Below the pieces are notes generated by a model. The model was not told the origin of the DNA, searched no databases, and saw only the letters and a program-made list of their open reading frames with translations. The position numbers and the translations under genes were made by a program. Shown here in pieces: positions 7,626-21,166 of a stretch of 21,166 nucleotides of DNA. This DNA is from Nanobdellota archaeon (GTDB taxonomy: Archaea; Nanobdellota; Nanobdellia; Woesearchaeales; JAHWHD01). Every line of letters begins with the position of its first letter. Position 1 is the stretch's first letter. The stretch spans positions 9,071 through 30,236 of the forward strand of contig JAYENX010000031.1 in assembly GCA_034722435.1 (NCBI GenBank). The letters are read 5' to 3'.

Positions 7626-8441
7626 ATGAGAAAAGAGGTAAGTACTCACACTTTAATAATAATATCAATATTCTTTGTTCTTATAGCAATCGCGGTAACT
7701 ATTTCTTTTTTATCAGAATATAATTTAGATTGGAATTCGGTCACAGGTAATGTAGTAGGATTAGCAGAGGTTGATGTTGTATGTTTAGTAGGAATTTCAA
7801 TGCCTGTTAATCACATTAATTTTGGTGCTGTTCCACAAAGTTATTTTGATGATACAACAGATAATAATCCTGAACCAATGATTATACAAAATGATGGAAG
7901 TATAAAAGTTGATGTTTCAATTGCAAGAGATGAGACTAGTACAGCTCTTTTTAGTGGAACAGGCGGAGGAGATAACACTTCAAGTTTTCAATTCAAAGCT
8001 GATTACTCTAATGAAACAGGAGCTTTTAATTATGCAGAATCTTTAACAGACTGGACATACGTGCCTGGAACTGATGGTTTGATTGCGATCACAGGTCTTA
8101 ATTATTCGGACAGTTATGATTCGGCTGAGATTGATCTTAAAATTCAAGTCCCTTATAATGAACCATTAGGTAAGAAAAACGAAACATTAAATTTTATTGC
8201 AACAGCTTCAGAAGGTGCAATATGCGGGGATGAAGATGGTAGTTGTAGAGATAAGTTTACAGAGTGCGCTGAAAGTTGTGCACCTCCAGATTCTAATTGT
8301 TATATCAGTTGCGGTCAAATCTTTGGAAGTTGCGTAAGTGTAAGTTGTACAGACCAATTACAAACTTGTAAAAATGATTGTACGGATGCTAATTGTAGAA
8401 CGGCATGTAACGTAGAGTTCAAAGAATGTACATCATTATAG
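7626..8441 (+). CDS. Exported pilin/WxL-like subunit with a Cys-rich C-terminal extension (candidate minor or tip subunit)
   Basis: N-terminal TM, then VTGNVVGLAEVDV, INFGAV..QNDG..VDVSI and IQVPYNEPLGKKNETLNFIA. Clear paralog of 8699-9283. 13-Cys tail. Confidence 0.9.
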   Translation: MRKEVSTHTLIIISIFFVLIAIAVTISFLSEYNLDWNSVTGNVVGLAEVDVVCLVGISMPVNHINFGAVPQSYFDDTTDNNPEPMIIQNDGSIKVDVSIARDETSTALFSGTGGGDNTSSFQFKADYSNETGAFNYAESLTDWTYVPGTDGLIAITGLNYSDSYDSAEIDLKIQVPYNEPLGKKNETLNFIATASEGAICGDEDGSCRDKFTECAESCAPPDSNCYISCGQIFGSCVSVSCTDQLQTCKNDCTDANCRTACNVEFKECTSL

Positions 8442-8484
8442 AAAAGTTTAAAAATTGAAATATAAATTAATATATAAAAGGAGG
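8441..8484 (+). promoter_or_regulatory. Internal promoter candidate and strong Shine-Dalgarno for the 69-aa gene
   Basis: GAAAAG-TTTAAAAA (8441-8454). AGGAGG at 8479-8484, 8 nt before the ATG at 8493. Confidence 0.6.
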
Positions 8485-8492
8485 ACATTAAG

Positions 8493-8702
8493 ATGATAAA
8501 GAATTTATTAGCGGTTTTAATTATAGTTGCGATAGTGATCTCTTTAGCAGGCGTGTTTTTAGTTTTGAATACAAACGATGCGCCAGATGTAAAAATTGCT
8601 GCAGGAACTGCAAAAGTTAATGTTATAGCGGCATCAAACATTCCCGCTTCAACAGGTCAAGCAATTGTAAATGTTATTGAAAATACGGAGGTAGTAAAAT
8701 GA
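8493..8702 (+). CDS. 69-aa membrane peptide: TM helix plus two tandem G-x-A-x-V-N-V-I strands
   Basis: Strong SD and hydrophobic N-terminus. GTAKVNVI and GQAIVNVI recur at a 17-aa period. ATGA overlap with the next gene. Confidence 0.85.
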   Translation: MIKNLLAVLIIVAIVISLAGVFLVLNTNDAPDVKIAAGTAKVNVIAASNIPASTGQAIVNVIENTEVVK

Positions 8703-9283
8703 AAGAAGAGATTTCAAATAAAACATTAGCAATCCTTGTTATTATAGCAGTCATAGTTTCAATAGGAACAACTGTTACACTCTTGACAAGATTAGATTCA
8801 GGTGCAACAGGTGCAGCAACAGGATTAGCCAAAGTTGATGTAACTGGTTTGGTTGCGATTTCGTTACCAAGTAATACTGTTGATTTCGGTTCAGTTGTAC
8901 AAGGATATACAGCGGACACTACAACTAATAGTCCAGCACCATTAACAGTTCAAAATGATGGCGGTGTACCAGTAAATGTATCCATAGAGAGAGATAATTC
9001 TAGTTCAGCATTATTTAGTGGAACAGGTTCAGGAGATAACACTGCAACGTTCAAGTTTAAGATTGATACAGTAAGCGGAGAACCAAATTCATTCAATTAT
9101 GGGTCTTCAACAACTTCATGGACAAATGTTCCGGGTACAACAGCTATCGAGGATGTCATAACAGATTTAAATTATACAAATACTAATGATATCGCAGAAG
9201 TTGACTTACAAATCAATGTACCGAACGACGAACCATTAGGTTCTAAAAACGAAACTTTAGTTTTTATAGCTGAACAGTCTTAA
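8699..9283 (+). CDS. Exported single-domain pilin/WxL-like subunit (candidate major subunit)
   Basis: GGAGGT SD at 8687-8692 and ATGA coupling. TM, then ATGAATGLAKVDV, VDFGSV..QNDGGVPVNVSI and INVPNDEPLGSKNETLVFIA. Confidence 0.92.
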   Translation: MKEEISNKTLAILVIIAVIVSIGTTVTLLTRLDSGATGAATGLAKVDVTGLVAISLPSNTVDFGSVVQGYTADTTTNSPAPLTVQNDGGVPVNVSIERDNSSSALFSGTGSGDNTATFKFKIDTVSGEPNSFNYGSSTTSWTNVPGTTAIEDVITDLNYTNTNDIAEVDLQINVPNDEPLGSKNETLVFIAEQS

Positions 9284-9285
9284 AA

Positions 9286-9302
9286 TTTTTTTATTTTTAT
9301 TT
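9286..9302 (+). terminator. Oligo-T archaeal terminator candidate after the 194-aa gene
   Basis: TTTTTTTATTTTTATTT directly after the TAA at 9281-9283. Confidence 0.55.
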
Positions 9303-9305
9303 AAA

Positions 9306-10439
9306 ATGAAAAAAGTTTTAATTTTTATTTTGTGTATTCTAATTTGTCCAGTATTAGTTAGTGCTATAGGTATTGGACCTCCGAGACAAACTATAGAATT
9401 TCAAGCAGGTTTAGAGAAAGAGTTAATATTTTTCGTAGTTAATACCGAACAATTAGATTTAAGCGTAAGTATGTATTCTAAGGGCGAACTTGCTGAATTT
9501 ATAACAATTGAAAACAATCAGTTCAATCTTAAACCTGGAGAAAAAAAGGATGTTGCAGTAAAATTAAAATTACCCTTTAAGATTGATACTCCTGGAAAAA
9601 ACCTTATAAAGATTGGGGCTCTCGCATCACCAAAAAGTTCAAAAGATGCAACTGTCGCCGCAAAAGCAGGTGTCGAATCTCAATTATATATAGATGTGCC
9701 TTATGAAGGTAAATATTTGACAGCATCTTTAAACGCAAATAATGCAAAAGTAGGAGAAAATATTAACTTTGCGATCAATTTAAAAAATAATGGTTTAGAA
9801 AATATTGATTCAGTTAGCGGTATAATAAAAATATATGATTCTGAAAGTGACAAAGTTTCAAGTGTTAATGTTGTCTCAAAAAGTGTTAATGCAGGAGAAA
9901 GTGAAAAACTAGAAGCATCATGGAACACTAAAAATGTTAAACCAGGGTCATATAAAGCTATTGCAGATATTGACTTTGATGGAAATAAAAAGAGTATTGA
10001 AGCAAGTTTTAATGTTGGAGATGTTCTTATTGAAATAATAGATTTGAAAAATAATGATTTTAAACCAGGCGATATTGCTAAATTTACAATAACCGTGCAA
10101 AGTAAATGGAATAAAAAAATATATAACGCGTTTTCTTTAATTGAGGTTTATGATATGCAAGGAAATCTTCAAGGGGAAACAGAAAGTAAAAAAATAGATA
10201 TAGGTGCATGGGAACGAAAAGATATTGAAGCTTTTTGGGATTCAACAGGGGCAGTATCTGGAGATTATAAAGTAAAAGTTGTTCTTAATTATGAAGGTAA
10301 AACTTCTGAAAAAAATTTTAACATTACAGTTAAAGAGAAAAGTAGTTATGGATTAATAATCTTAAGTATTATCGTTGTTATGTTAATGATAGTGGTTGCG
10401 TGGTTTAAATGGGAAAAGTCAAGAAAGAAAAAGCGATAA
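9306..10439 (+). CDS. Membrane-anchored three-Ig-domain protein, PapD-like / DUF916-DUF3324 (WxL-interacting)-like architecture
   Basis: SPase I-type signal (VSA|IGIGP) and PapD-like opening IGIGPPRQTIEF..FFVVN. Two CARDB-like repeats (N-x-G..WNT..PGSYK and W..GAVSGDYKVKV). C-terminal TM plus basic tail. Confidence 0.9.
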   Translation: MKKVLIFILCILICPVLVSAIGIGPPRQTIEFQAGLEKELIFFVVNTEQLDLSVSMYSKGELAEFITIENNQFNLKPGEKKDVAVKLKLPFKIDTPGKNLIKIGALASPKSSKDATVAAKAGVESQLYIDVPYEGKYLTASLNANNAKVGENINFAINLKNNGLENIDSVSGIIKIYDSESDKVSSVNVVSKSVNAGESEKLEASWNTKNVKPGSYKAIADIDFDGNKKSIEASFNVGDVLIEIIDLKNNDFKPGDIAKFTITVQSKWNKKIYNAFSLIEVYDMQGNLQGETESKKIDIGAWERKDIEAFWDSTGAVSGDYKVKVVLNYEGKTSEKNFNITVKEKSSYGLIILSIIVVMLMIVVAWFKWEKSRKKKR

Positions 10440-10825
10440 TAATTCTTGCTATTGTTATATTAGTAGTAGTAGCCGTATCTTATTTAGTTTATAACATGTT
10501 AAAGCCAGACGATATTCAAGTTATAGATATGACCATTAAAGTAGGAAATTATACAGGTTTTGATGTTAACACCAGTTATTTAATATTCGGAACAGTTGTT
10601 CCAGGCGGTTATTCTAAAAGAAGTATTAAGATAAAAAATATAGATGATAAAAAGCACAATGTTGAAATTGTTACTGAAGGAGAACTTTCAGATTGGACAA
10701 AGATTTCAAATAATAACTTTATAATTAATAATGGCGAAATTAAAGATGTTGATGTTACTATTTTTATTCCTGAAAGATCAGATATGAGAAAATATGATGG
10801 GAAATTGGCAATAATATTTAGATAA
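10409..10825 (+). CDS. TM-anchored single pilin-like Ig domain
   Basis: N-terminal TM, LIFGTVVPGG..IKIKN, terminal TIFIPERSDMRKYDGKLAIIFR. Overlaps the previous gene by 31 nt, so the start is approximate. Confidence 0.85.
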   Translation: MGKVKKEKAIIILAIVILVVVAVSYLVYNMLKPDDIQVIDMTIKVGNYTGFDVNTSYLIFGTVVPGGYSKRSIKIKNIDDKKHNVEIVTEGELSDWTKISNNNFIINNGEIKDVDVTIFIPERSDMRKYDGKLAIIFR

Positions 10826-10895
10826 TGTAGTTTATTTGTATCTTATTGTATTTTAAAAAATAATTTCGAATTATTCTATTTATTGCAATAATGTT

Positions 10896-12221
10896 CTATT
10901 TTTTGTTATTAAAATCTTTAGTTTTGAATCTTCTAAATCCTGTATAAACAGTTATTAGAATAACCGATAAAATGGCTACAACTAGTAATAGATTAAAGAA
11001 AGGTATTGGTATCCACAGTCCGGGTTTTTCAATATTTATGGGTTGTACAGATTCTATAAAACCTGAATCGCAAGATCTCGAATCAACAGGTTTAGTTTTT
11101 CTCATTACCTTGAGTATCTTTCCTTCAGCAACTAGTTTATCACATTTATTTGAATCATAACAATTTCTGGTTTGTTTTCCATCAACACAAATAGACCATT
11201 CTCCGCAAATCCAGAACTCTTCACAAGTAGGTGGAGGGTTTGAGGGTGAAAATGATGAAGCTCTACTAGCTGCTCTTGTTATAGGATTAGGGCCAATACC
11301 TAGCCCTGGGTCGGCAGGTTCTAAAAATATAGTAGTGCTCCGAGAACCGTTAGTAAGATTAGCAAGTACTGTCCAGTTATCATCATTACAATAACGTTCT
11401 GTAAAGTTCCAATTTAAGCATTTGAAAAGTTGAAAACCTTGACTATTATCAAAACTTAATTGTACTTCCATGTTTGAAAAATGAGTTATCAAAGGATTAA
11501 CAACCACCAGCCTGTTCCATTTACGTTCATCTATCGAATCTATACCTAAAAAATCGCCAATAGTTCCAACATTGATAAAATCGTAGAATATAATTTTGTC
11601 CAAACCTCTGTAATTATAAGGATTTATTTCTATAGTATAACTCATACCCCATAAGAATGAAAGGTTATAAATCTCGTCATCGATTGCAATCAATCTATCA
11701 TCGCTGTCTCTATAGACTAATATCTCTCCGTCACCAGTTTTATTAGGCGCTTCAACTAATCTTCCAAAAGCTTCATAAGGAGGGAGTATTTCGATAATTT
11801 TGTCCCTATTATTAGTATATTCGTTAAGATCTTTAGCGAGTAGAGTATAATTATCATAAGCCATCCCGCATGTATCCCAGATTGTGTTAAATGAACCTGA
11901 ACCGTCTGTGCTAAGATTTATAGGATAGTTTGCGATTACAGAACCGGTTGAATTTAAAATATAAAATTCAATAAGTCCATCATCTGTAAAATGAGACCCC
12001 AGTATGGAAATATTAATACCAGGGGAATAAATCTCGTGTTCAGTATAAAGAGATGATTCTGGCCTCACAACATTAAGTAAGATATTTGCGGCAGCAGTAT
12101 GACCTACAATTTCTGGCTGTTTTAATAAAATTGAAAAACTTGAAATCGTAATAGCTATCCAAATTATAATTAGTGCCAGAATTAATCTTGAATTTACCTC
12201 ATAACCCCTCTTTTTAACCAT
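10896..12221 (-). CDS. Surface protein: TM/signal, lone strand, MG2-like Ig domain, KC-WNF-C-W module, TSP1-like Cys motif, C-terminal TM
   Basis: YSPGINISI..DGSGSFNTIW; LFKCLNWNFTERYCNDDNW..EPADPGLG; CEEFWICGEWSICVDGKQTRNCYDSNKC; C-terminal hydrophobic helix plus basic tail. Confidence 0.92.
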   Translation of the reverse strand: MVKKRGYEVNSRLILALIIIWIAITISSFSILLKQPEIVGHTAAANILLNVVRPESSLYTEHEIYSPGINISILGSHFTDDGLIEFYILNSTGSVIANYPINLSTDGSGSFNTIWDTCGMAYDNYTLLAKDLNEYTNNRDKIIEILPPYEAFGRLVEAPNKTGDGEILVYRDSDDRLIAIDDEIYNLSFLWGMSYTIEINPYNYRGLDKIIFYDFINVGTIGDFLGIDSIDERKWNRLVVVNPLITHFSNMEVQLSFDNSQGFQLFKCLNWNFTERYCNDDNWTVLANLTNGSRSTTIFLEPADPGLGIGPNPITRAASRASSFSPSNPPPTCEEFWICGEWSICVDGKQTRNCYDSNKCDKLVAEGKILKVMRKTKPVDSRSCDSGFIESVQPINIEKPGLWIPIPFFNLLLVVAILSVILITVYTGFRRFKTKDFNNKK

Positions 12222-12232
12222 TAAAATAAAAA

Positions 12233-12269
12233 TTGCGAATTATATATATAAAGTTTTGCGAATTATATA
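12233..12269. repeat. Exact 14-bp direct repeat TTGCGAATTATATA (12233-12246 and 12256-12269)
   Basis: Two identical copies at a 23-bp period, straddling the TATA/BRE of the 441-aa gene. Confidence 0.8.
12245..12260 (-). promoter_or_regulatory. BRE + TATA box for the 441-aa gene (leaderless geometry)
   Basis: Minus strand CGCAAAAC-TTTATATA (TATA 12252-12245). ATG at 12221 follows about 24 nt downstream. Confidence 0.75.
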
Positions 12270-12306
12270 ATAGTTTAATAAAACATTTTAATAAAAAATA
12301 AGTAGA

Positions 12307-12314
12307 TTTAAATA
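12307..12314 (+). promoter_or_regulatory. TATA box of the RHH-RHH-394aa operon
   Basis: TTTAAATA, 47 nt upstream of the ATG at 12362. Confidence 0.65.
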
Positions 12315-12322
12315 GGAGTTCC

Positions 12323-12358
12323 CTAACTTAACTAACTAAGTTCACTTAGTTAAGTTAG
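12323..12358. promoter_or_regulatory. Inverted-repeat operator upstream of the RHH genes
   Basis: Outer 13-bp arms CTAACTTAACTAA (12323-12335) and TTAGTTAAGTTAG (12346-12358). Nested inner palindrome TAACTAAG-ttca-CTTAGTTA. Ends 3 nt before the ATG. Confidence 0.75.
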
Positions 12359-12361
12359 TAA

Positions 12362-12493
12362 ATGGTAAATATCAATATAACAATTCCAGACGAATTGCAT
12401 AAAAATGCGAAAATTAAGAGCGCTATCTCAGAGATTTCTTTAAAGGAATTCATAATTAAATCATTAAAAGAGGGCATTAAGAAAAATGGTTAA
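12362..12493 (+). CDS. Ribbon-helix-helix DNA-binding protein 1 (43 aa; not in ORF track)
   Basis: MVNINITIPDELHKNAKIKSAISEISLKEFIIKSLKEGIKKNG: alternating N-terminal strand followed by two helices, the Arc/CopG/ParG-type pattern. Confidence 0.88.
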   Translation: MVNINITIPDELHKNAKIKSAISEISLKEFIIKSLKEGIKKNG

Positions 12494-12614
12494 TGTTAAT
12501 ATTAAGATTTCTAATGAACTGCATAAAAAGATTAAAGTGAAATGTGCAATTAATAGCATAACACTCAAAGATTTTGTAATAAAAAGTTTGAAAAAGAAAT
12601 TGAAAAATGGATAA
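12486..12614 (+). CDS. Ribbon-helix-helix DNA-binding protein 2 (42 aa; not in ORF track)
   Basis: MVNVNIKISNELHKKIKVKCAINSITLKDFVIKSLKKKLKNG. 26 of 43 aligned positions identical to RHH1 (hand count). 8-nt overlaps with both neighbours. Confidence 0.88.
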   Translation: MVNVNIKISNELHKKIKVKCAINSITLKDFVIKSLKKKLKNG

Positions 12615-13791
12615 AAAGATTGCTTGGATAGTTATTGGAATAATAGGTTTATTATCTATTAACGTAGCTTTTGCTTTTGATTTAGTCACAGGCGGTTTTA
12701 TTTATTCTCAAGGTTCGTTCACAGTTGACAATATTGCACCCGTAATTGATGTTATTAGCGAGATTATAGGGGATGAAGGAGATTTAATAACTATAAACGC
12801 TAATGTTTCTGATCCTAATGGCGATCCAGTTACAATAAGCTATAGTCTTCCATTCAATGAATCAGGACAATGGCAAACTATAATTGGAGATGGAGGAGTT
12901 TATCAAGTAACGGTTTCTGCTTCAGATGGGACTCTTAACAGCACTGAAAATGTAATTGTTAAGATTGTACCATACTGCGGTGATGGAATATGCAGTGCTA
13001 ACAATAGTGAAACTTGTAGCAATTGTGCAACTGATTGTGGAGAATGTGCTAGTTCTAGTAACGGAGGAAGAAAAAGGGACAAAGAAATAATTCCAGAACC
13101 TGAACTTGAAAATGAAATAGAAGAAGAAGAAGAAGAAGAAGAAGAATCTACAGAAGATGGTCAAGAGCAAGGAATGTCAGAAATTGAAAAAGTTTCAGAG
13201 GATGAAAAAGATGAGAAAGGGGTTTTAATAGTATCAGAAGATTTAGGTGTCGATGTGAACATAATTAAGGATGGCGAAGGAAAAAAAGGTGTTGATACCA
13301 GTACATCAGACACCATAAGAATTAAAATAAACATAGTACAATCCTTAGGTATTAAGGAAGATACCACTATTAAAGTTAAATATTTAATAATACCAATTAA
13401 AGATAATATTATAACAGCTAACGCAATTTATGATGATTATGCAGATGCTTTAGTTGAGTCATCGTATTCTTTTTATTTAGAAGAGTATGTGGAAGTTTCA
13501 GCTGAAAATATCAACTTGATACGAGAGATAGATATACCAGAACATCTCAAATCTGGAAAGTATAAGCTCGTTATAGTTGTAGAACACGAGGGCAGAGTAG
13601 CAATTGACGAAACAGAGTTTGTTGTGCCTAAAAGAATCGATTTAGAGCAGTCATTAATAAAAGATGTTTCTAATAAATTATTAACAGGCATAATAGCGAT
13701 TATAGTTTTAATTACACTATTCTTAAAAGTAAAAGAAGAAAATGAACGTAAGAATAAAGAAAAAAAGTTGAAGAAAAGAAAAAAGAAATAA
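12607..13791 (+). CDS. Surface protein: signal/TM, cadherin-like Ig domain, CGDG-C Cys motif, acidic linker, Ig domain, C-terminal TM
   Basis: NIAPVI..VSDPNGDPVT..VTVSASDG; YCGDGICSANNSETCSNCATDCGEC; poly-Glu; IP.HLKSGKYKLVIVV; TM plus Lys-rich tail. Confidence 0.92.
   Translation: MDKKIAWIVIGIIGLLSINVAFAFDLVTGGFIYSQGSFTVDNIAPVIDVISEIIGDEGDLITINANVSDPNGDPVTISYSLPFNESGQWQTIIGDGGVYQVTVSASDGTLNSTENVIVKIVPYCGDGICSANNSETCSNCATDCGECASSSNGGRKRDKEIIPEPELENEIEEEEEEEEESTEDGQEQGMSEIEKVSEDEKDEKGVLIVSEDLGVDVNIIKDGEGKKGVDTSTSDTIRIKINIVQSLGIKEDTTIKVKYLIIPIKDNIITANAIYDDYADALVESSYSFYLEEYVEVSAENINLIREIDIPEHLKSGKYKLVIVVEHEGRVAIDETEFVVPKRIDLEQSLIKDVSNKLLTGIIAIIVLITLFLKVKEENERKNKEKKLKKRKKK
13120..13146 (+). repeat. 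(GAA)9 perfect trinucleotide repeat encoding Glu9
   Basis: Nine consecutive in-frame GAA codons. Confidence 0.95.
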
Positions 13792-13807
13792 TAGTTTAAT
13801 TCTTCAA

Positions 13808-14354: not shown

Positions 14355-14960
14355 TTACCTTTTAGATCTCTTTTTCTTAGCCTTTAAAGGTTTTGTCGCC
14401 TTCTTTGATTTTGTAGGTTTCTTTAAAGGTTTTGCAGGTTTCTTTGATTTTCCTTTCTTGAAGTGATACAATAGGACAACCACAAAAACAGCAACTAAAA
14501 CAAGAGCTATTATTAAAGTAAAATCGTAGCTTTTATCAGGAATTGTCATATTATTTGTTAGTCTCTGTTGAACAACGTTTACATTAACAGGAAGACCACA
14601 AGAATCAATTTTTACAGTGGCGCCTGATTGTTCACTTGCAGGACTGCATCTGATGCAAAATTCTTGAGTATAGAAACCAAGTATCTTAGGAGCTTTAACA
14701 GTACCGTAAAACTCTGCTTTTGAGTTTGCATCTACAAACATAATATCATCATCAAAATCAATATTTAAATCAGACTCGCCTTGCAATTCATAAATACATT
14801 CAATTGCTTGAGGTTTATTAAGATTCTGAATCTGGAACTTAAATCTGCCTGATTCTGACTTAAGAAGTTCTAGTTCTGGTGGTAACGGATTTGTTACACC
14901 AGCATAAACTATAGGAACTAAAAATAAGGTAAATAGTAAAATTGCGATAAGTTTTTTCAT
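14355..14960 (-). CDS. Membrane-anchored single PapD/DUF916-like domain protein with a long Lys-rich tail
   Basis: GAGGTG SD at 14971-14966. Signal VYA|GVTNP, then FKFQIQN..GTVKAPKILGFY, C-terminal TM and KKPAKPLKKPTKSKK tail. Resembles domain 1 of 9306-10439. Confidence 0.9.
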   Translation of the reverse strand: MKKLIAILLFTLFLVPIVYAGVTNPLPPELELLKSESGRFKFQIQNLNKPQAIECIYELQGESDLNIDFDDDIMFVDANSKAEFYGTVKAPKILGFYTQEFCIRCSPASEQSGATVKIDSCGLPVNVNVVQQRLTNNMTIPDKSYDFTLIIALVLVAVFVVVLLYHFKKGKSKKPAKPLKKPTKSKKATKPLKAKKKRSKR

Positions 14961-14973
14961 TTCAACACCTCTT

Positions 14974-17568
14974 TTATGATAATGTTATTGTTATTGTTGT
15001 ATTATAAGTACCTGCACTAAGACCCGTAGGAGGATAGATATGGTAATAGGTATCCAGAGTTTCATTCAGCGCATTATCTGAACATGTAGCTGCACTACAA
15101 ACCTCTAATCCTGTGCCAGGCTCAAAAGTTTTTGCAGTAGTATTCATGTAAACTGGAGCTACATAGCCAGATGATTCTGCAGATTGTGAATTATCGTCAT
15201 CAATCTGGAAATCTGTTCCTGTCAAGTTCCAAGTATCGGTTCCTGAAGTAGGATTAGTAGCAGACCATTCCAGGTTAAGATTGTCGTTACCCCAGTTTGT
15301 CATAGTTGCTAAGCTCGTACCAGGGTTCCATTGATTAAGGTCAATGCTACCGTCACCAAGAGTTACAAGTGAAGGATAATCTATTGCTTTCAAAGTTCCA
15401 TAAATCCAAGAATCTGTATCCTCTCCATCAGATACTCTTTTACCTGCCTGGCTACTTATATTTACAAATAGTTGATAGTTTGCATTAGGCACGTCAAAGA
15501 ACTGTGGAGTTCCTTGAGTTTTATTTGTTGTAAACTCATATGTACATGTTGAGCCTGATCTGGAGACGGAGTCAACTTGCCAACCAAAGTCATACGAAGA
15601 TTCAGAACAGGATGCGTTATTTAAACATAGATAAATGTACGCTGTAGAATCTGTGTCGCAATCGTCATCTGTGTCTGTTGCAGTTAATTTAACAGCGACA
15701 GTTGCATTTGAATGTTCAACAGGATTCAAAGCGCATGTTGAAGATGTGCAACTAGAATATGCAGAACCTGCATCTGTTAAGCTTACATCTGTAATATCAG
15801 GAAGATAATCTAATAAATCTAATGTAGTGTTAAGGTCTAAACCTGTACCGTCAGTGTTGCCGTCGGTTGTCCAGACCTGGACATAAACAGTATTGTTAGC
15901 GTAAATTGTTCCAGGGACTCCCCAAGGTATTGCGGAGTCTACATCTTCGCCTGCTTTATTTGCTGCGTCATTATTTTCATAAGTACCATCGCCGTAGCTT
16001 GTACCAACCCTTAAATGATATGTTAAAGTGTCAGCAGGCCAATGATTGTCTGTACCATCATCAGGATCGGTGGCTGTCCAAGTTAAAGTTGGCGTTTGAT
16101 CATGAGTATCTAAAGGTAAGAACGATGTTGGTTGAGCAGGTAAACTGTTTAAAAGATTAAATTCAACATCATAAGCTGTACCATTCTCTGAACCGTCGTT
16201 AGGTGTAAGTCTTACATAATATGTTCTGTTAGTTCCGGAATAATCTAAGCCTGAAACAGCAGATACTGCATCTGAGCTTGTTGAAGAAGAATATGCATCA
16301 CAAGTGTTTGTGTCCCTATTTCCAGATGTGGTTGAAATACAAACATAAGTTGTAACTGTATCGCCATCATTATCCGAAGTTGTCCATTGCATATTAGGTG
16401 TTTGATCGTGAGTATCTAGACTGGAAGAATCCCAATTAGCTGCACCGTCTTGTATCTCAAAACCTGAAGGTTGATTAGGTGGCGTGTTTTGTATTGTTTC
16501 GTTTGTACTGTTAACAGCGTCACCAATATAAGAATGTTCATCTACAGGTGTGACTTCGCACATCCATATATCGCTAGTTCCAGTATTTGAACTTGCAATT
16601 GTTGAACTTGTAAATCCTGTAAGTGCCCATGCACTTCCAGTAAAGTTATACCATCTAAATGTTGAAGTTCCCTCTGAATCAGAATCTCCATCAGCAAAAG
16701 AATATGAACATGTCAAAGTTTGACTAGTTGTAGGGTTGTTAGGAGTTATATCTACAGATGAAGCTGTAGGTTTATGGTTTACATGAAATGTATGGCTGTA
16801 ACCAGTTGAACATTGTCCAGGACATGAATCGTCATTAGGTGGACAATCGCATACGAAAAAATAAGCGTCATAAGTTGAAGAACTTTCGCCAGAGGTTAAA
16901 GTATAAGCACAACCTAAATCCGCATCATCACTATATGTGCCAGCATATTCGTTGCACCATTCTCCTCCAGTACATGTACCGTCAGTTCCAATGGCGTTTG
17001 TTTTACACACTCTTAATGAATGATTATCAGCTGCATCAGTGTCAGTATGAGAAGTCATTGAAAATGTTACATCTTCACCGTCATGTTTAGGGCTACCCGA
17101 ACTTGAATCTGAAGTCTGAGTACTTACAGTAGGAATTGCGTCTGTTAATGTAAAGGAAAGCGTATCATTAATAGTACCATTTGAAGTACCATCTGTTGGC
17201 GTTAGTTTAATATAATAATTTCTTGAAGCAGTACCCCAAGTATAGTCCCAGTTTGATTCCACCTGAGTAAAAGCATAAGAAGGATCTGCATAAGGACCTG
17301 CGTTTACAACATCACATGAATTGTCATCAGTATCCGCACTTATACATACATATGTAGAAACAGGGTCCCCATTAGGATCTGAACCTTCTGTCCAAGAGAA
17401 TGTTTGATCTTTATCATGAGTTGTTGTTGGTGTCCAATCGTACGGAGAATCCGGAGCTGCGTTTCCAATAGTAAATGTTCCAACAGGACTTTCAGTTTCA
17501 GCATAAACTGCAAAAGAAAATAAACTTATTATTAGTATAGATATTATGGTTACAATTGCTTTATTCAT
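14974..17568 (-). CDS. 864-aa secreted FN3/Ig-repeat protein ending in a pilin/WxL-like domain; no C-terminal TM
   Basis: Signal VYA|ETESP. Three THD-x-x-x-x-x-x-W..D-x-[DN]-G repeats and many Cys. Ends TNWGNDNLNL..HIYPPTGLSAGTYNTTITITLS. Confidence 0.93.
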   Translation of the reverse strand: MNKAIVTIISILIISLFSFAVYAETESPVGTFTIGNAAPDSPYDWTPTTTHDKDQTFSWTEGSDPNGDPVSTYVCISADTDDNSCDVVNAGPYADPSYAFTQVESNWDYTWGTASRNYYIKLTPTDGTSNGTINDTLSFTLTDAIPTVSTQTSDSSSGSPKHDGEDVTFSMTSHTDTDAADNHSLRVCKTNAIGTDGTCTGGEWCNEYAGTYSDDADLGCAYTLTSGESSSTYDAYFFVCDCPPNDDSCPGQCSTGYSHTFHVNHKPTASSVDITPNNPTTSQTLTCSYSFADGDSDSEGTSTFRWYNFTGSAWALTGFTSSTIASSNTGTSDIWMCEVTPVDEHSYIGDAVNSTNETIQNTPPNQPSGFEIQDGAANWDSSSLDTHDQTPNMQWTTSDNDGDTVTTYVCISTTSGNRDTNTCDAYSSSTSSDAVSAVSGLDYSGTNRTYYVRLTPNDGSENGTAYDVEFNLLNSLPAQPTSFLPLDTHDQTPTLTWTATDPDDGTDNHWPADTLTYHLRVGTSYGDGTYENNDAANKAGEDVDSAIPWGVPGTIYANNTVYVQVWTTDGNTDGTGLDLNTTLDLLDYLPDITDVSLTDAGSAYSSCTSSTCALNPVEHSNATVAVKLTATDTDDDCDTDSTAYIYLCLNNASCSESSYDFGWQVDSVSRSGSTCTYEFTTNKTQGTPQFFDVPNANYQLFVNISSQAGKRVSDGEDTDSWIYGTLKAIDYPSLVTLGDGSIDLNQWNPGTSLATMTNWGNDNLNLEWSATNPTSGTDTWNLTGTDFQIDDDNSQSAESSGYVAPVYMNTTAKTFEPGTGLEVCSAATCSDNALNETLDTYYHIYPPTGLSAGTYNTTITITLS

Positions 17569-17624
17569 TGATATCCCTCTTTTATTTTTAAATAGTAATT
17601 ATTTGAATATTTAAATGTTTTCAT
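17565..17624 (-). other. Possible 19-codon bridging mini-ORF MKTFKYSNNYYLKIKEGYQ
   Basis: AGGAGTGA (17638-17631) lies 6 nt before the ATG at 17624. Its TGA overlaps the 864-aa ATG (ATGA). Confidence 0.35.
17608..17622 (-). promoter_or_regulatory. BRE + TATA candidate for the 864-aa gene
   Basis: Minus strand GAAAACA-TTTAAATA. A GAGGGA SD-like sequence lies 5 nt before the ATG at 17568. Confidence 0.55.
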
Positions 17625-17626
17625 TT

Positions 17627-20600
17627 TTAATCACTCCTTATGTTAATAGTTGATTGATAATTTTGAGATATAGTTCCAGAAGGTATGTAACCTCTGAAGT
17701 AAATTTCTTTAGTCTGTTGAACAGAAAGTTTGTAAATTTCTTGGTATGTAGTTGCAAGTTCAGTGTATGTGCCAGTAGCTGTTTCGTTGTATGTTGCATT
17801 TCCTACACCAATTGAATATGAAGAATTTGTCTGACCAATGAAATCTGAACCTGAAAGGCTTATGTTAACGAGGGAGTTACCAGTATTTCTGATATACATA
17901 GGATATGCATCAGAACTGTTCACAGTTTCTAAAGGTAAACCTGAGAATGAAACTGTCGATATGCTTAGTTCATGTGCAATTAGAGTATTATAATAATAGC
18001 TACTGTTTTCTTGATCAGAGTTAGAATCTGTAAGATTAACATCCAAGGTTACGCTCCAGTCTCCAGGATTTCTGAAATAATCCATGTTCCAAGATGTATT
18101 ACATTGCGTTTGTGTCCCAGTAGTTTGAATTATGCCAGTAGCAATATTTAATGTTGGCGAAATATACGAATCTGATGCATTGTAAATCCTTACTTCGCAA
18201 GAATCTATTGCAGTTGTGTTTGTAATGTTTGCTACAAGCGTTACAGTAACATTATTGTCTTCAACAGGGTTTATCTGAAATCCTGCAGTAAGTTCGTCAT
18301 CATCAGGAGTTATTAAGATGTCAGTTATGTTAACCGAAGCCTGACCTAATTGAACTGTAAATGTCCCATTTTTCTCATATGCATTAAAACCTAGACTGCA
18401 ATTTGCATTAATGTAATAATTATAAGTTGTTGCAGATAACGAAGTTGTATCGTAAATATATGTCCAAATATCTTGCGAATCAGGATTCATAGTATAGTTA
18501 ACACCATCAAAATTTAGTAGAACAGTATCAACTGTTCCAAGACTAGTTACATTCACAGTGAATGTGATATTTTCTCCTTGAGTTACAGGATCAGGAGAAT
18601 CGTCTAAAGTGTTAATCCAAATTCCGCAGCTAGTTGTTGAAGCAGTATTGTTAACATCAGTATTATTTATATTTCCAGCATGGTCTTTAGTGTGGACTGT
18701 AATAGTATAATTAGTATTGTCATCTAATCCCGTTGCATTATAGAATGCGTTTGTTGTGTTAATCACATTTGTTCCGTTGATATAAATTATTGTTTCGTTG
18801 AAATCAGCGTCAACAGGGTTTGTCCAAGTCCAATATATTGAAGCAATATCTTGAGATTCATTTTGTAAGTTTGTAACCGAGGCAGGAGGAGATGTGTCAG
18901 ATTCAGTGTAAGTTACATTAAAATAGAATACGTCCCATGTAGCTGTTTCAGTTGAACCCTTACCTGCAGTAGGTCTTGAGAGTTCAGATTTTGCGTATGC
19001 TCTTGTTCCGGATGCTCCAAAAAAGTTTGCACAAGTCCATGTTTCTAGTGAAGTAACATTAGTACAAATTATACCAGGATCGGTTGTTGTTCCTGGGCAG
19101 GTTGTTGTTACCGCAGTATAACTCGCACCTGCATTTGCATCTATACTTATGTCACAATCAGTAGGTGCAGATTGTACTTGCGTACTCCACCATTCATAAC
19201 AGAAGAAAACTTCGTCAACACTTTGACAATTTGTTATGCCTGTATCAACTGATTGAATTCTTACTCCAGCATAAGTACCTTTAGTATAAGTATGAGTTTC
19301 AGTTGTTCCACCATTAGTTTCTAAAGATGAACCGTCTGTTTGGTCGCAAGTTCCTCCGAATGAACCTTTAATGGCCTCGTCTTCAGCTGCACAAGTACTT
19401 ACAGTCTCTGCAAAACCTGGATCGTCAGGAGTTAAAATAAAAGTATAATCTTGTCCCGGTATTAAATCTGATTTGAATAATGACCAAGTACCGAAACAAG
19501 TTTGAGTTGCGAAATTCCAATCCTTACATTTGTAAAGTTCTGTACCTGTTGCAGTTACTGTAACAGTTGCGTTAGTAAAGTTCAGGTTAGTAGGGTCAAT
19601 AGCATAAACTTCAACATAATTATCGAATTCAGGAACATCATCAATTTTGATGTCTGCAGTAAAGTCTTCATAAATTGTTAAATCACGATATTCAATTTCC
19701 TGAACAGGATGATTATTAAGTTTGGTTTTAATATTATATTCGCCTTCTTTGAGAATTTTCTTTGCTTGACCATGATTTTTAGAAGCTTTAACTTCATCAG
19801 TTAAACTGTCAATAAGTTCGATTGTAGCGTCAATCTCTGAACCAGATGCGTCCCTTACAACAGTTGTGAAGTCAACATTTTTCGCAGTACCAAATTCGAA
19901 CGCTTCCGTGTGCGCTCCGACCAAGATTCTGAAACGTTCATCGTTCCAATTGAAAACTGTCAGAGTTATATTTTCATCAGCCGACGAGGTCTTTTTATCA
20001 AGCAAGTATTCGACATTTCCTTTGATGAAAATAGGTAAAGGTTTAGATGAATCATGATGGAATTTAACAGTTAAGTCGTTTGTTTCATCGTCTTTTACGA
20101 TTGAATCAATAATTGCGTCGTATCTTATATCTTCTTTAATTTTCAAGTAAGAAACGTTAGTTACATTATAACCTTCAGCAAAGCTTTGAGTTCCTAATAA
20201 TTCTACTTCGTAATCTTCACCAGGAACAATACTTCTAACTTTAGTCCAACCATCTAAACAAATTTGTTCTAAGAAGTTCCAAGAATCGCACCTGTAAAGT
20301 TCTGACGAGTTTGCAGTTATAATGGCTTTTGCAGATGCAAATTGAACTCTTGGGTCGATTGCGTACTGCTGTACAAAGTCTGGAGAAGTAACTGTTTCAA
20401 CATATTCGAATCCTGCAAGTTCAGTTGTTGTTTCAGTTAAATCAGTTCCTGCAAAAGTTATACTTTTAACAGGATGTGTATCCCCGCTAAAAGACATTAC
20501 TTTAGGATTAATAACAACATCATAATATCCAGATGCAAATTTAACAATGTCCCCGGAATGTCCAGATTCAATCGTTGAATGGTCGTCATAAATTGTTACA

Positions 20601-21166
20601 TACGCATCTACAAGTTCTCCATAGCTGTCAGTTATATTAAGCGCAACATCAACAGATTGTTCAATAGTTGTAAGATTTTGTACTAAGTAAGTTGCAGAAT
20701 CAACATTAAATATAATTTCACCTTCGACTTCAAATACAAGAGCGTACTCTGTTGAGTTAAGTCCTTCAGGAAGTAAGCAACTGTCTGCACAAACTTCGTT
20801 GAAGTCGAACCTTTGCCATAAAGATTCTTCAATTGTTTCATTAAGCGTTAGGTTTTCAATTAATTCAACAGTTTCATTTAGTTCAGTTAGATTTTCATCA
20901 ATAAAAGTAACATTTTCAGGAATAACACCTTCGACAATTGTTTCATTAACAGTAACTTCGCTAGTAACATTATCTAAAACAATCTCTTCAGTTATGTTTT
21001 CTTCAATAATTGGTTCAATTACTTCAACAATAGATCCATTGTTTTCAACTTCAGGAAGTTCGACTATTTCTTCAGTTTCAGATGGTTCTTCAATTACTTC
21101 CTCAGCATCAGAAGAAGAATCTTCATCAATTTCAGTTTCTTCAGAAGTTTCACTAGACGAATCATC
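17627..21166 (-). CDS. Large secreted multi-domain surface protein, >=1179 aa; partial, N-terminus beyond the right edge; ends in a pilin/WxL-like domain
   Basis: I read the frame from 20497 to 21166 and found no stop, so the track's MSFSG start is internal. Contains an acidic stalk, FNEVCADSCLL, two KC-WNF-C-W modules, an 8-Cys domain, an FN3-like domain and terminal IRNTGNSLVNI..GYIPSGTISQNYQSTINIRSD. Confidence 0.93.
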   Translation of the reverse strand, partial: DDSSSETSEETEIDEDSSSDAEEVIEEPSETEEIVELPEVENNGSIVEVIEPIIEENITEEIVLDNVTSEVTVNETIVEGVIPENVTFIDENLTELNETVELIENLTLNETIEESLWQRFDFNEVCADSCLLPEGLNSTEYALVFEVEGEIIFNVDSATYLVQNLTTIEQSVDVALNITDSYGELVDAYVTIYDDHSTIESGHSGDIVKFASGYYDVVINPKVMSFSGDTHPVKSITFAGTDLTETTTELAGFEYVETVTSPDFVQQYAIDPRVQFASAKAIITANSSELYRCDSWNFLEQICLDGWTKVRSIVPGEDYEVELLGTQSFAEGYNVTNVSYLKIKEDIRYDAIIDSIVKDDETNDLTVKFHHDSSKPLPIFIKGNVEYLLDKKTSSADENITLTVFNWNDERFRILVGAHTEAFEFGTAKNVDFTTVVRDASGSEIDATIELIDSLTDEVKASKNHGQAKKILKEGEYNIKTKLNNHPVQEIEYRDLTIYEDFTADIKIDDVPEFDNYVEVYAIDPTNLNFTNATVTVTATGTELYKCKDWNFATQTCFGTWSLFKSDLIPGQDYTFILTPDDPGFAETVSTCAAEDEAIKGSFGGTCDQTDGSSLETNGGTTETHTYTKGTYAGVRIQSVDTGITNCQSVDEVFFCYEWWSTQVQSAPTDCDISIDANAGASYTAVTTTCPGTTTDPGIICTNVTSLETWTCANFFGASGTRAYAKSELSRPTAGKGSTETATWDVFYFNVTYTESDTSPPASVTNLQNESQDIASIYWTWTNPVDADFNETIIYINGTNVINTTNAFYNATGLDDNTNYTITVHTKDHAGNINNTDVNNTASTTSCGIWINTLDDSPDPVTQGENITFTVNVTSLGTVDTVLLNFDGVNYTMNPDSQDIWTYIYDTTSLSATTYNYYINANCSLGFNAYEKNGTFTVQLGQASVNITDILITPDDDELTAGFQINPVEDNNVTVTLVANITNTTAIDSCEVRIYNASDSYISPTLNIATGIIQTTGTQTQCNTSWNMDYFRNPGDWSVTLDVNLTDSNSDQENSSYYYNTLIAHELSISTVSFSGLPLETVNSSDAYPMYIRNTGNSLVNISLSGSDFIGQTNSSYSIGVGNATYNETATGTYTELATTYQEIYKLSVQQTKEIYFRGYIPSGTISQNYQSTINIRSD

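What the first reader, a model, noticed from the sequence alone, without database searches (positions are those of the whole stretch)
7626..21166. Candidate donor-strand ('plug-and-socket') surface filament/adhesin system in a DPANN-like archaeon
Seen: five proteins (271, 194, 138, 864 and >=1179 aa) carry a related last beta-domain. It opens with hydrophobic-x-F(G) or similar, has a central hydrophobic-x-N-x-G strand (N only in the 138-aa protein), and closes with I/V-x-V/I/P-P-x4-G/x-x-Y/K-x2-T/K-hydrophobic, e.g. PPTGLSAGTYNTTITITLS and VPNDEPLGSKNETLVFIA. The 271- and 194-aa proteins have an alternating strand right after the signal (GLAEVDV, GLAKVDV). Established: WxL domains and chaperone-usher pilins (CfaB, CsuA/B) end in a similar P..G-x-Y-x-x-x-hydrophobic strand, and the pilins polymerise by N-terminal donor-strand complementation with PapD-fold chaperones. 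Inference: the locus encodes an usher-less archaeal version with major and minor subunits, membrane-bound chaperone-like proteins (377 and 201 aa), and large adhesins tethered through their terminal socket domain.
Basis: partly seen in the sequence, partly recalled or inferred. Interest (0 to 1): 0.9.

Follow-up and report, generated by a model that had tools for sequence, protein, structure and literature searches.

The report
Archaeal chaperone-type strand-exchange pilus locus
A tiny symbiont-type (DPANN, Woesearchaeota-like) archaeon carries a widely conserved gene set that most likely builds a surface fibre whose subunits lock together by lending each other a protein strand, helped by membrane-tethered chaperone-like proteins and tipped by giant adhesins, an assembly route shown so far only in bacteria.

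Summary
The 271-aa and 194-aa proteins are clear paralogs. They define an unnamed ~150-aa domain with 1265 representative hits. It occurs as small membrane/signal + domain proteins and at the very C-terminus of giant proteins. The ≥1179-aa protein carries a divergent copy. The 864-aa C-terminus is not linked by sequence. The 138-aa protein is a different, chaperone-type Ig domain.

The 194-aa model most resembles donor-strand pilus subunits. A predicted trimer places its conserved N-terminal strand (G42, A44, V46, V48) in the neighbour's groove, antiparallel to the last strand (score 0.74, best control 0.00).

The 377-aa protein has a signal, three Ig domains and a C-terminal membrane helix. 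Its best structural match is the enterococcal WxL-interacting protein (Z 14.4), followed by chaperone-usher chaperones. The 201-aa protein is a one-domain version.

The cassette giant adhesin / chaperone-like / strand-only membrane peptide / small pilins / chaperone-like / 138-like recurs in the 18 related loci fetched. Pilin and chaperone genes co-occur across genomes.

This is the Elr/WxL and Pam pilus logic, in an archaeon, with a pilin domain that is not WxL. Polymerisation is predicted, not shown. This scan has reached the same reading for similar loci in other DPANN genomes.

The parts
7626..8441 (+). 271-aa pilin-like subunit: N-terminal hydrophobic helix, V-T-G motif, donor-like strand (G45-V51, nt 7758-7778), pilin domain, and a ~75-aa Cys-rich C-terminal tail. 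Candidate minor or specialised subunit.
   Evidence: 51% identical to the 194-aa protein. Family HMM E 1e-60. Homologs with C-terminal extensions exist (P0003, P0004, P0007, P0012, P0015).
8493..8702 (+). 69-aa membrane peptide: a membrane helix followed only by two donor-like strands (G38-I45, nt 8604-8627; G55-I62, nt 8655-8678). Candidate base, terminator or membrane anchor that plugs a pilin groove. Its stop overlaps the start of the 194-aa gene (ATGA).
   Evidence: The N-terminal helix and strand match the pilin family HMM (E 2e-5). Peptides of 61-99 aa with a membrane helix and one or two [ST]-G-x-V-x-hydrophobic-x-V/I strands precede the small pilin genes in at least 14 related loci.
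8699..9283 (+). 194-aa pilin-like subunit (candidate major subunit): helix 7-31, invariant G38, donor strand G42-V48 (nt 8822-8842), beta-sandwich pilin domain 52-194 (nt 8852-9280).
   Evidence: 1265 representative homologs. AF2 pLDDT 90.2. Foldseek top hits are donor-strand fibre subunits. Predicted trimer ipSAE 0.74 vs best control 0.00. Donor-strand positions are conserved.
9306..10439 (+). 377-aa membrane-anchored chaperone-like protein: signal 2-13, D1 21-131 (nt 9366-9698, PapD/MSP-like, long C-terminal hairpin), D2 138-237 (nt 9717-10016, CARDB / WxLIP_HBD-like), D3 242-342 (nt 10029-10331), membrane helix 348-376 (nt 10347-10433).
   Evidence: AF2 pLDDT 89.9. VIA best match WxLIP 9i1y Z 14.4, then YadV, FimC and SafB at Z 12-12.6. 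Pfam WxLIP_HBD hits in 10 of 23 family members, one over the cut-off. It is the only WxLIP_HBD match in the genome. Conserved K/R27, K136 and alternating hydrophobics 117-131.
10409..10825 (+). 138-aa protein: N-terminal membrane helix plus a single Ig domain related to D1 of the 377-aa family. Conserved accessory protein of unknown role; not a pilin domain.
   Evidence: A2 HMM positions 39-97, domain E 9e-9. Orthologs follow the 377-like gene in at least 11 loci. Weak Pfam Cep192_D4 / HYDIN Ig matches.
14355..14960 (-). 201-aa protein: signal + D1-type domain + C-terminal membrane helix and a basic tail. A short, one-domain version of the chaperone-like protein, paired with the 864-aa gene.
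   Evidence: A2 HMM positions 8-123 and 353-385, full E 1e-9. Orthologs (54% and 42% identity) directly follow orthologs of the 864-aa protein in L040 and L041.
14974..17568 (-). 864-aa secreted repeat protein (candidate adhesin). Its C-terminal ~165 aa is an Ig-like sandwich whose relation to the pilin domain is not demonstrated.
   Evidence: No Pfam hit. hhalign to the pilin family 0.2-0.4%. The Atlas model of residues 700-864 resembles Ig-like domains. Its position between a giant adhesin and a 201-like gene is conserved in L040, and the pairing with a 201-like gene in both L040 and L041.
17627..21166 (-). >=1179-aa giant surface protein (5' end lost in a scaffold gap). Candidate tip adhesin with a divergent pilin domain as its last domain (fragment residues ~1058-1179, nt 17630-17995).
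   Evidence: Family HMM 19.9 bits, genome-wide E 2.9e-5. hhalign 81%. The C-terminal 270 aa are 49% identical to the end of a 4183-aa protein that precedes the 864-like gene in L040.

Best explanation
The locus encodes a chaperone-assisted, usher-less donor-strand-exchange surface fibre of a DPANN archaeon.

Inferred mechanism:
- Small subunits (194 aa as the likely shaft, 271 aa as a variant with a Cys-rich tail) are exported by the Sec system. They are probably cut after the invariant [TS]-G (G38).
- Their Ig-like pilin domain lacks a final strand.
- The membrane-anchored 377-aa protein holds the groove with the long, alternating-hydrophobic hairpin at the end of its PapD-like first domain. 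It would act like ElrE/WxLIP or PamC/D.
- Giant proteins that end in the same domain but have no free donor strand (here the >=1179-aa protein) can only accept a strand. They therefore sit at the distal tip as adhesins.
- The 69-aa peptide has a membrane helix plus donor-like strands and no domain. It can only donate, so it is the best candidate for the membrane-proximal plug that ends and anchors the fibre.
- The 201-aa and 138-aa proteins are one-domain relatives of the chaperone-like protein with unknown accessory roles. The 201-aa protein is probably dedicated to the 864-aa protein.

Shown here: homology, domain positions, fold class, synteny, co-occurrence and the in-silico strand insertion.

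Inferred: signal cleavage, the chaperone function, fibre length, and the roles of tip and base.
For: Family and domain position:
- The 194-aa domain has 1265 representative hits. It occurs both free and as the last domain of proteins up to 4544 aa and up to 6986 aa in genomes.

Fold:
- AF2 pLDDT is 90.2, and residues 32-53 are not packed in cis.
- The Foldseek PDB list is dominated by donor-strand fibre subunits: TLP-1a E 7.9e-4, CsuA/B, FimA, FimG, PapG pilin domain, CupE, TasA, ABP and cannulae.

Strand insertion:
- Predicted trimer ipSAE is 0.74 against a best control of 0.00. The mark was reached by 20 of 30 proteins solved as pairs of one chain and by 1 of 23 solved as single chains. Runs agree in at least 97% of contacts, and pLDDT is 91.
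- Residues 36-51 of one copy lie against 52-69 and 170-193 of the next. [quoted passage not shown] G42, A44, V46 and V48 face the core.
- These four positions are the conserved ones in 29 small subunits, while the outward-facing positions vary.

Chaperone-like protein:
- The best structural match is WxLIP, Z 14.4, rmsd 10.9, 210 aligned. Two-domain matches to YadV, FimC and SafB give Z 12.0-12.6.
- Recurrent WxLIP_HBD hits, with one homolog at 34.7 bits against a cut-off of 28.9.
- A basic residue at position 27 in 20 of 23 members, K136 in 16 of 23, and alternating hydrophobics 117-131.

Synteny:
- The same gene order occurs in 18 loci.
- In 121 class genomes, 34 have the pilin domain and 28 have a full-length 377-type gene at E<=1e-40. 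27 genomes have both.
- 95 of 201 phylum genomes have the domain.

No usher was found.

Precedent:
- Elr/WxL pilus: bioRxiv 10.64898/2026.10.17.759780.
- Pam pilus: PMC13278184.
Against: - No experiment, expression data or mass-spectrometry data.
- The complex predictor may be recalling solved donor-strand complexes. The job also used three copies and my own alignment, unlike its calibration.
- Structural Z-scores for the pilin domain are only middling (maximum 7.7) and are shared with non-pilin PapD-like/ASH Ig domains.
- The N-terminal hydrophobic segment is about 22 residues long, more like a membrane anchor than a typical signal peptide, and cleavage is unproven.
- In large proteins an alternating strand also precedes the domain, probably the last strand of the upstream domain. 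So 'no donor strand' for the tips is an inference.
- WxLIP_HBD and CARDB are common Ig domains. The 377-aa protein itself scores below the Pfam cut-off (16.4-17.2 bits against 28.9).
Confidence: 0.6

Rival explanations
1. Static adhesin-display platform rather than a fibre. The pilin-like domain is a socket by which giant adhesins are held on the single membrane. The socket is complemented by a strand from a membrane-anchored partner: the 69-aa peptide, an uncleaved small subunit, or the 377-aa protein. Only one or a few links form and no long polymer is built. This corresponds to the older 'platform' model of WxL clusters.
For: - All candidate strand donors keep a membrane helix.
- The hydrophobic segment of the small subunits is long enough to be a permanent anchor.
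- Each pilin gene often has its own strand-only peptide gene (L022, L030, L035), which suggests 1:1 complexes.
- A 377-like gene directly follows many giant adhesin genes.
- The platform model was proposed for WxL clusters (PMC10599100, as cited).
Against: - The homotypic head-to-tail contact of the 194-aa subunit is predicted with high confidence.
- The [IAVL]-[TS]-G motif before the strand fits a signal-peptidase site.
- For the WxL clusters the platform model has been revised to a pilus.
- Tandem small paralogs, up to four per locus (L032), fit a shaft better than a single adaptor.
Confidence: 0.22
2. Ordinary, unrelated Ig-domain surface proteins. The shared domain is a generic PapD-like/ASH-type sandwich used as a stalk or S-layer-contact module. 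The predicted strand insertion is an artefact of the predictor.
For: - The top VIA Z-scores for the pilin domain go to HYDIN, CEP192 and MSP-type Ig domains (Z 7.0-7.7).
- There is no Pfam or NCBIfam family.
- One of 23 single-chain proteins passed the complex test in its calibration.
Against: - The inward-facing strand residues are conserved selectively.
- The strand-only peptides are conserved.
- The domain sits strictly at the terminal position of giant proteins.
- It is tightly linked to a WxLIP/PapD-like membrane protein.
- A generic stalk module would not be expected to show any of these four features.
Confidence: 0.12
3. Type IV pilin-like subunits. The N-terminal helix is a class III signal/core helix and the beta-domain decorates a type IV filament.
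For: - The AF2 model shows a long N-terminal helix followed by a beta-sandwich, as in archaeal type IV pilins.
- A loosely conserved S-N-x-x-L motif lies before the helix.
Against: - There is no [KR]-[GA] prepilin-peptidase site before the helix in most members.
- The same domain ends giant proteins that have no adjacent helix.
- No type IV assembly genes lie in this window or in the related loci whose genes were listed.
- A conserved strand with trans-insertion, and a chaperone-like neighbour, are not features of type IV pili.
Confidence: 0.03

Closest known systems
Elr / WxL pilus of Enterococcus faecalis and WxL (Csc) clusters of Bacillota (bioRxiv 10.64898/2026.10.17.759780; PMC10599100)
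   Same: - Same cast and gene logic. [quoted passage not shown]
- A large tip adhesin with the pilin domain as an invariant C-terminal module under a variable payload.
- A chaperone with PapD-like domains held by a C-terminal membrane helix. The best structural match of the 377-aa protein is WxLIP.
- A strand-only base subunit.
- No usher.
   Different: - The host is an archaeon with a single membrane and no peptidoglycan or sortase step. The candidate base is anchored by an N-terminal membrane helix, not LPxTG.
- The pilin domain is not WxL: there is no PF13731 match at E<=10 and no dual W-x-L motif.
- The last buried donor residue is Val, not Phe.
- The chaperone-like protein has a third Ig domain.
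- Extra one-domain relatives (138 aa, 201 aa) are present.
- The preprint reports the system as confined to Bacillota.
Pam pilus of Candidate Phyla Radiation bacteria (PMC13278184)
   Same: - An ultra-small episymbiont lifestyle.
- Ig-like pilins joined by donor-strand exchange.
- PapD/FimC-like chaperones that carry a C-terminal membrane helix.
- A predicted tip subunit and a membrane-anchoring terminator, with no usher.
- The Atlas structure search finds Saccharimonadota proteins with a similar terminal domain (TM 0.52-0.61).
   Different: - Pam pilins have two domains (a nine-strand sandwich plus a truncated Ig), whereas the subunits here have one.
- A sequence relationship could not be tested because no Pam sequences were at hand.
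- Pam pilins are reported as exclusive to CPR.
Classical and archaic chaperone-usher pili (Fim, Pap, Csu, CFA/I)
   Same: - An incomplete-Ig pilin fold class (Foldseek hits to FimA, FimG, the PapG pilin domain, CsuA/B and CfaB).
- Donor strand antiparallel to the last strand.
- A tip adhesin carrying a pilin domain.
- Two-domain chaperone matches (YadV, FimC, SafB at Z 12-12.6).
- A conserved basic pair at positions analogous in sequence to PapD R8/K112.
   Different: - No outer membrane and no usher.
- The chaperone-like protein is membrane-tethered and has three domains.
- No sequence similarity to PapD_N was seen.
Archaeal donor-strand filaments: Sulfolobus threads, Pyrobaculum bundling pili (AbpA, TasA-like), Pyrodictium cannulae (CanA), haloarchaeal Tafi (TafE/TafA)
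   Same: - Archaeal, Sec- or Tat-exported subunits that polymerise through an N-terminal donated strand.
- Moderate structural similarity: ABP Z 6.5, CanA Z 6.4, thread Z 6.0.
   Different: - Those systems are described as free of chaperones and ushers, and they lack giant tip adhesins that share the pilin domain.
- None is reported from DPANN; PMC12337348 does not mention DPANN.
- No sequence relationship was detected.

Membership tests
Elr/WxL-type chaperone-guided donor-strand-exchange pilus | The pilin carries a WxL domain (Pfam PF13731, dual Trp-x-Leu motif) | tested here: not met
   There is no PF13731 match in the six-frame genome at E<=10. None of the 32 family members hits it at E<=1. 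The Atlas feature search gives a WxL cluster only at 0.79, below the lead threshold.
Elr/WxL-type chaperone-guided donor-strand-exchange pilus | Membrane-anchored chaperone with DUF916 (WxLIP_PGBD) + DUF3324 (WxLIP_HBD) and a C-terminal membrane helix | tested here: inconclusive
   Architecture and fold agree. The order is signal, PapD-like D1, Ig D2, Ig D3, membrane helix, and the best VIA match is WxLIP 9i1y at Z 14.4 over residues 19-237. By Pfam the 377-aa protein is under the cut-off (HBD 16.4-17.2 bits against 28.9). Ten of 23 homologs hit HBD, one at 34.7 bits. Only 2 of 23 hit PGBD, weakly.
Elr/WxL-type chaperone-guided donor-strand-exchange pilus | [quoted passage not shown] | tested here: met
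   Met in silico only. ipSAE is 0.74 against a best control of 0.00. The mark was reached by 20 of 30 solved one-chain pairs and 1 of 23 single chains. Contacts 42-48 with 178-189 run antiparallel. The buried positions are conserved.
Elr/WxL-type chaperone-guided donor-strand-exchange pilus | Tip adhesin with the pilin domain as its C-terminal module | tested here: met
   The >=1179-aa protein qualifies. So do many homologs of 250 to 6986 aa with the domain at the extreme C-terminus, next to small pilin genes.
Elr/WxL-type chaperone-guided donor-strand-exchange pilus | Strand-only base subunit anchored to the envelope (ElrB: LPxTG/sortase) | tested here: inconclusive
   A strand-only peptide family exists and is syntenic. 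However, it is anchored by an N-terminal membrane helix, has no LPxTG, and its binding to a pilin groove was not modelled.
Classical chaperone-usher pili | Outer-membrane usher (Pfam PF00577) | tested here: not met
   No match at E<=1 in a genome that is 94.5% complete.
Classical chaperone-usher pili | Periplasmic two-domain PapD-type chaperone | tested here: inconclusive
   Fold matches to YadV, FimC, SafB, FaeE and PapD give Z 10.9-12.6. There is no PapD_N sequence hit, and the protein is membrane-tethered with three domains.
TasA / camelysin (Peptidase_M73) and archaeal bundling pilin AbpA | Sequence or clear fold membership in the TasA-like family | tested here: inconclusive
   No Pfam hit. 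The Atlas model resembles a camelysin cluster at TM 0.56-0.61. The TasA fibre gives Foldseek E 1.3e-2, and ABP gives Z 6.5 at rmsd 8.0.
Archaeal type IV pilins | Class III signal peptide with a [KR]-[GA] cleavage site before the hydrophobic helix | tested here: not met
   In the alignment of 29 small subunits, the position before the helix is A, T, L, N or I, with no conserved G/A after a basic residue.
Pam pili of CPR bacteria | Homology to PamA/B pilins and PamC/D chaperones | not testable with these tools
Only the architectural parallel could be taken from PMC13278184.

The most novel reading that the evidence does not exclude
[quoted passage not shown] It carries giant host-attachment adhesins at its tip.

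Its base would be a new kind of element: a membrane-embedded peptide that consists only of donor strands. This peptide is often encoded one-to-one with each pilin gene, and it plugs the last subunit and anchors the fibre.

If so, tethered-chaperone strand-exchange pili are not confined to Bacillota or CPR. They would be a shared solution of single-membrane cells across both prokaryotic domains.
Probability: 0.4. Interest if true: 0.85.

Novelty: new variant of a known kind. Interest (0 to 1): 0.74.

Why it matters
DPANN archaea live attached to other cells, and how they hold on is largely unknown. Their genomes are full of unannotated giant surface proteins. This cassette gives many of those giants a concrete, testable mounting mechanism.

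The pilin domain is present in 95 of 201 sampled genomes of the phylum. If the mechanism holds, chaperone-guided donor-strand exchange extends into Archaea. Until now it has been shown only in Gram-negative bacteria, with recent preprints reporting it in Bacillota and CPR.

The locus also provides an unnamed pilin-domain family and a strand-only anchor peptide family, both of which could be annotated.

Tried and rejected
- Pfam and NCBIfam on all ten window proteins gave nothing for the 271-, 194-, 69-, 864-, 441- and 169-aa proteins.
- phmmer of the 194-aa protein against PDB sequences gave nothing significant.
- A profile of the 377-aa family against PDB sequences gave only weak CARDB-type hits, E >= 0.05.
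- Linking the 864-aa C-terminus to the pilin family failed. I tried a single sequence, a 27-sequence profile, and comparisons with the 1179 C-terminus and the chaperone family. The Atlas feature search gave only unnamed clusters, plus WxL/SCPU leads at 0.80-0.81.
- A homolog search with the 1179 C-terminus returned only itself.
- The WxL Pfam model found nothing in the genome.
- The type IV pilin reading was rejected on the missing cleavage motif and on the domain's position in giant proteins.
- A genome-wide test of the [ILVMF]-[TS]-G motif after N-terminal helices showed only about two-fold enrichment: 36 of 198 against about 9% expected. That is too weak to call it a general signal.
- Cluster look-ups of ten homologs gave only 'hypothetical protein'.
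- Only one complex job was allowed. The chaperone-pilin, peptide-pilin and pilin-adhesin pairs were therefore not modelled.

Full report
**Context.** The window is G000:C31:9071-30236 of a 1.3-Mb genome that is 94.5% complete. Close homologs of the 864-aa protein are named Candidatus Woesearchaeota archaeon. Atlas relatives of the 194-aa protein are Nanobdellota/Woesearchaeota.

There are two gene groups:
- Plus strand, 7626-10825: 271 aa, 69 aa, 194 aa, 377 aa and 138 aa. Gaps are 22-51 nt or the genes overlap, so this reads as one operon.
- Minus strand, 21166-13808: >=1179 aa, 864 aa, 201 aa and 169 aa, also tightly packed.

**The shared domain.** The 271-aa and 194-aa proteins are 51% identical over their whole length (E 1e-58). 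Neither matches any Pfam or NCBIfam model.

An exhaustive phmmer of the 194-aa protein found 1265 representatives at E<=1e-3 and 607 at E<=1e-10. About a quarter of the best 150 are ~180-240-aa proteins with the same layout. Most of the rest are proteins of 250 to 4544 aa in which the match covers query residues ~33-193 and ends within a few residues of the C-terminus.

Within the window:
- >=1179 aa: a family HMM finds its C-terminus at 19.9 bits. It is the third-best of 1490 genome ORFs, E 2.9e-5. hhalign gives 81%.
- 864 aa: the C-terminus is not linked (hhalign 0.2-0.4%, even with a 27-sequence profile). The weak alignment is collinear and shares the N-x-G and P..G motifs.
- 138 aa: it matches domain 1 of the 377-aa family instead.

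On its own it over-groups. Three of the five assignments stand.

**Fold.** The AF2 model of the 194-aa protein used a 32-sequence alignment and reached pLDDT 90.2:
- helix 7-31;
- an unpacked linker 32-53 at pLDDT 55-77;
- a beta-sandwich 54-194.

Foldseek against the PDB returns almost only subunits of donor-strand fibres. The list runs TLP-1a (E 7.9e-4), CsuA/B, FimA, FimF/G, the PapG pilin domain, CupE, CS17, TasA, the Pyrobaculum bundling pilin, cannulae and CfaB, with TM 0.3-0.5. TLP-1 is itself an environmental donor-strand fibril (PMC11494351).

The independent VIA search is weaker. Its maximum Z is 7.7, and PapD-like/ASH/MSP domains tie with pilins. The pilins cover more of the domain but at higher rmsd: TLP-1b Z 7.1 with 148 aligned, ABP Z 6.5, CanA Z 6.4, Sulfolobus thread Z 6.0. 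The fold class is right for a pilin, but this does not prove it is one.

**Strand insertion.** I modelled three copies of residues 36-194 with the family alignment:
- The score was 0.74 against a best control of 0.00. That mark was reached by 20 of 30 proteins solved as one-chain pairs and by 1 of 23 solved as single chains. The job differs from the calibration because it used three copies and my own alignment.
- The runs agree in at least 97% of contacts, with pLDDT 91.
- Residues 36-51 of one copy lie against 52-69 and 170-193 of the next.
- The pair list shows residues 42 to 48 running against 189 to 178 (antiparallel to the last strand) and against 56 to 66 (parallel to the first strand).
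- G42, A44, V46 and V48 touch core residues 82, 105, 118, 170 and 172.

In 29 small family members, exactly these positions are conserved: G 26/29, A/T 25/29, V 21/29, V 24/29. The alternate, outward positions are variable and polar. They are preceded by [IAVL]-[TS]-G38, and G38 is invariant. That motif fits the -3/-1 rule of signal peptidase I, which is my inference.

The linker between V48 and the first strand is about three residues, so the strand cannot reach its own groove. This too is inference.

**The chaperone-like proteins.** The AF2 model of the 377-aa protein used 23 homologs and reached pLDDT 89.9. It has a signal, three sandwiches (21-131, 138-237, 242-342) and a membrane helix at 348-376.

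Structural and sequence matches:
- The best of 48,161 chains is WxLIP of Enterococcus faecium: Z 14.4, rmsd 10.9, 210 aligned over residues 19-237.
- Two-domain matches to the chaperone-usher chaperones YadV, FimC and SafB give Z 12.0-12.6. D1 alone matches PapD, FaeE and MSP domains.
- Pfam WxLIP_HBD hits 10 of 23 family members. Three checked members match it in D2 at 24.7-26 bits, and one in D3 at 34.7 bits, over the 28.9 cut-off.
- In this genome the only WxLIP_HBD match is D2 of the 377-aa protein.

The family also keeps three sequence features:
- a basic residue at position 27, in the first strand (20/23);
- K136 at the D1-D2 hinge (16/23);
- an alternating hydrophobic run at positions 117-131, in the long last hairpin of D1.

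The two basic positions are analogous in sequence to the R8/K112 pair of PapD, and the run to its G1 donor strand. That comparison rests on established knowledge of PapD, and their placement in 3D was not checked.

The 201-aa protein is signal + D1 + membrane helix of the same family (E 1e-9).

**Synteny.** In 121 genomes of the class, 34 carry the pilin domain. Full-length 377-type genes at E<=1e-40 are in 28 genomes, and 27 of these also have the pilin domain. In 201 genomes of the phylum, 95 carry the domain, covering 73 of 158 genera.

In 18 fetched loci the order recurs:
1. giant protein ending in the domain;
2. 377-like gene;
3. short membrane peptide;
4. small pilin, one to four copies, often each with its own peptide;
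5. 377-like gene;
6. 138-like gene;
7. a ~300-360-aa protein with N- and C-terminal helices.

The short peptides (61-99 aa) all have a membrane helix and then one or two strands of the form [ST]-G-x-V-x-hydrophobic-x-V/I. This is the same pattern as the pilin donor strand. The window's 69-aa protein has two such strands.

The minus-strand module is conserved as well. In two other Woesearchaeota contigs, the 864-aa ortholog is followed directly by a 201-aa ortholog (54% and 42% identity). In one of them it is preceded by a 4183-aa protein whose last 270 residues are 49% identical to the end of the >=1179-aa protein.

**Comparison with known systems.** Archaeal donor-strand filaments are known: threads, bundling pili, cannulae and Tafi. 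All are described as chaperone-free, and none is from DPANN.

Two 2026 preprints describe usher-less, tethered-chaperone systems:
- The Elr/WxL pilus has the ElrE chaperone (DUF916/DUF3324 with a C-terminal helix), the ElrC/D pilins, the ElrA tip with a C-terminal WxL module, and ElrB, a strand-only base. It is said to be confined to Bacillota.
- The Pam pilus of CPR has PamC/D, PapD-like chaperones with a C-terminal helix. It is said to be exclusive to CPR.

The present locus has the same cast. It differs in five ways:
- its host is an archaeon;
- its pilin domain is not WxL;
- its candidate base is helix-anchored rather than sortase-linked;
- its chaperone-like protein has three domains;
- it carries extra one-domain relatives of that protein.

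No usher is present.

**Verdict.** The best-supported reading, at about 0.6, is a chaperone-assisted donor-strand-exchange fibre with giant tip adhesins.

The main rival, at about 0.2, uses the same strand-complementation chemistry only to tether adhesins to the membrane, without building a long polymer.

All of this is prediction. The decisive tests are chaperone-pilin and peptide-pilin modelling, and the co-expression ladder assay.

This scan has already reached the same reading for similar cassettes in other DPANN genomes. My conclusion rests on the tests above, not on those notes.

Noticed in passing
G000 contig C57:2-1679 (outside the window): There is a second, fragmentary cassette in the same genome on a 1.7-kb contig. 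It holds a 377-like gene (E 7e-74), a 138-like gene, and the start of a small protein with a membrane helix followed by I-T-G-H-A-T-G-I-A-A-F-E-L, a donor-like strand.
   Followed up: partly
just beyond window end (contig C31:30237-30436) and C31:30164-31312: A run of 200 N (a scaffold gap) starts right after the window. The >=1179-aa gene is cut by it. The ORF on the far side starts with a membrane helix followed by G-I-T-G-Y-F and is probably its N-terminus.
   Followed up: partly
window 1-6951 (-), 10896-12221 (-), 17627-21166 (-): The >=2317-aa giant protein (2357 aa in the contig) shares a 350-aa module at 51% identity with the >=1179-aa protein. A shorter Cys/Trp-rich module is also present in the 441-aa membrane protein. 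The C-terminus of the 2317-aa protein does not hit the pilin HMM.
   Followed up: partly
genome-wide; in the window at p271, p194, p169, p2317, p394: An [ILV]-[TS]-G motif a few residues after the N-terminal hydrophobic helix recurs in secreted proteins of this genome. It occurs in 36 of 198 proteins with such a helix, against about 9% expected by chance. It may mark a signal-peptidase site, but the enrichment is modest.
   Followed up: partly
L024:8544-8765 (-), L037:3346-3576 (-), L041:13600-13767 (+): Small ribbon-helix-helix-like ORFs sit inside or beside the cassette in several related loci.
   Followed up: no
window 8223-8441 (+): The 271-aa subunit carries a ~75-aa tail with 13 Cys after the pilin domain. 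Several homologs of 219-365 aa also extend past the domain, some with Cys-rich or acidic tails. The function is unknown.
   Followed up: no
L026:7893-9101 (-) and other 377-like genes: WxLIP_HBD matches fall on the second Ig domain in three checked homologs (and in the window's 377-aa protein) but on the third in one. This suggests that D2 and D3 are a tandem duplication of the same domain type.
   Followed up: no
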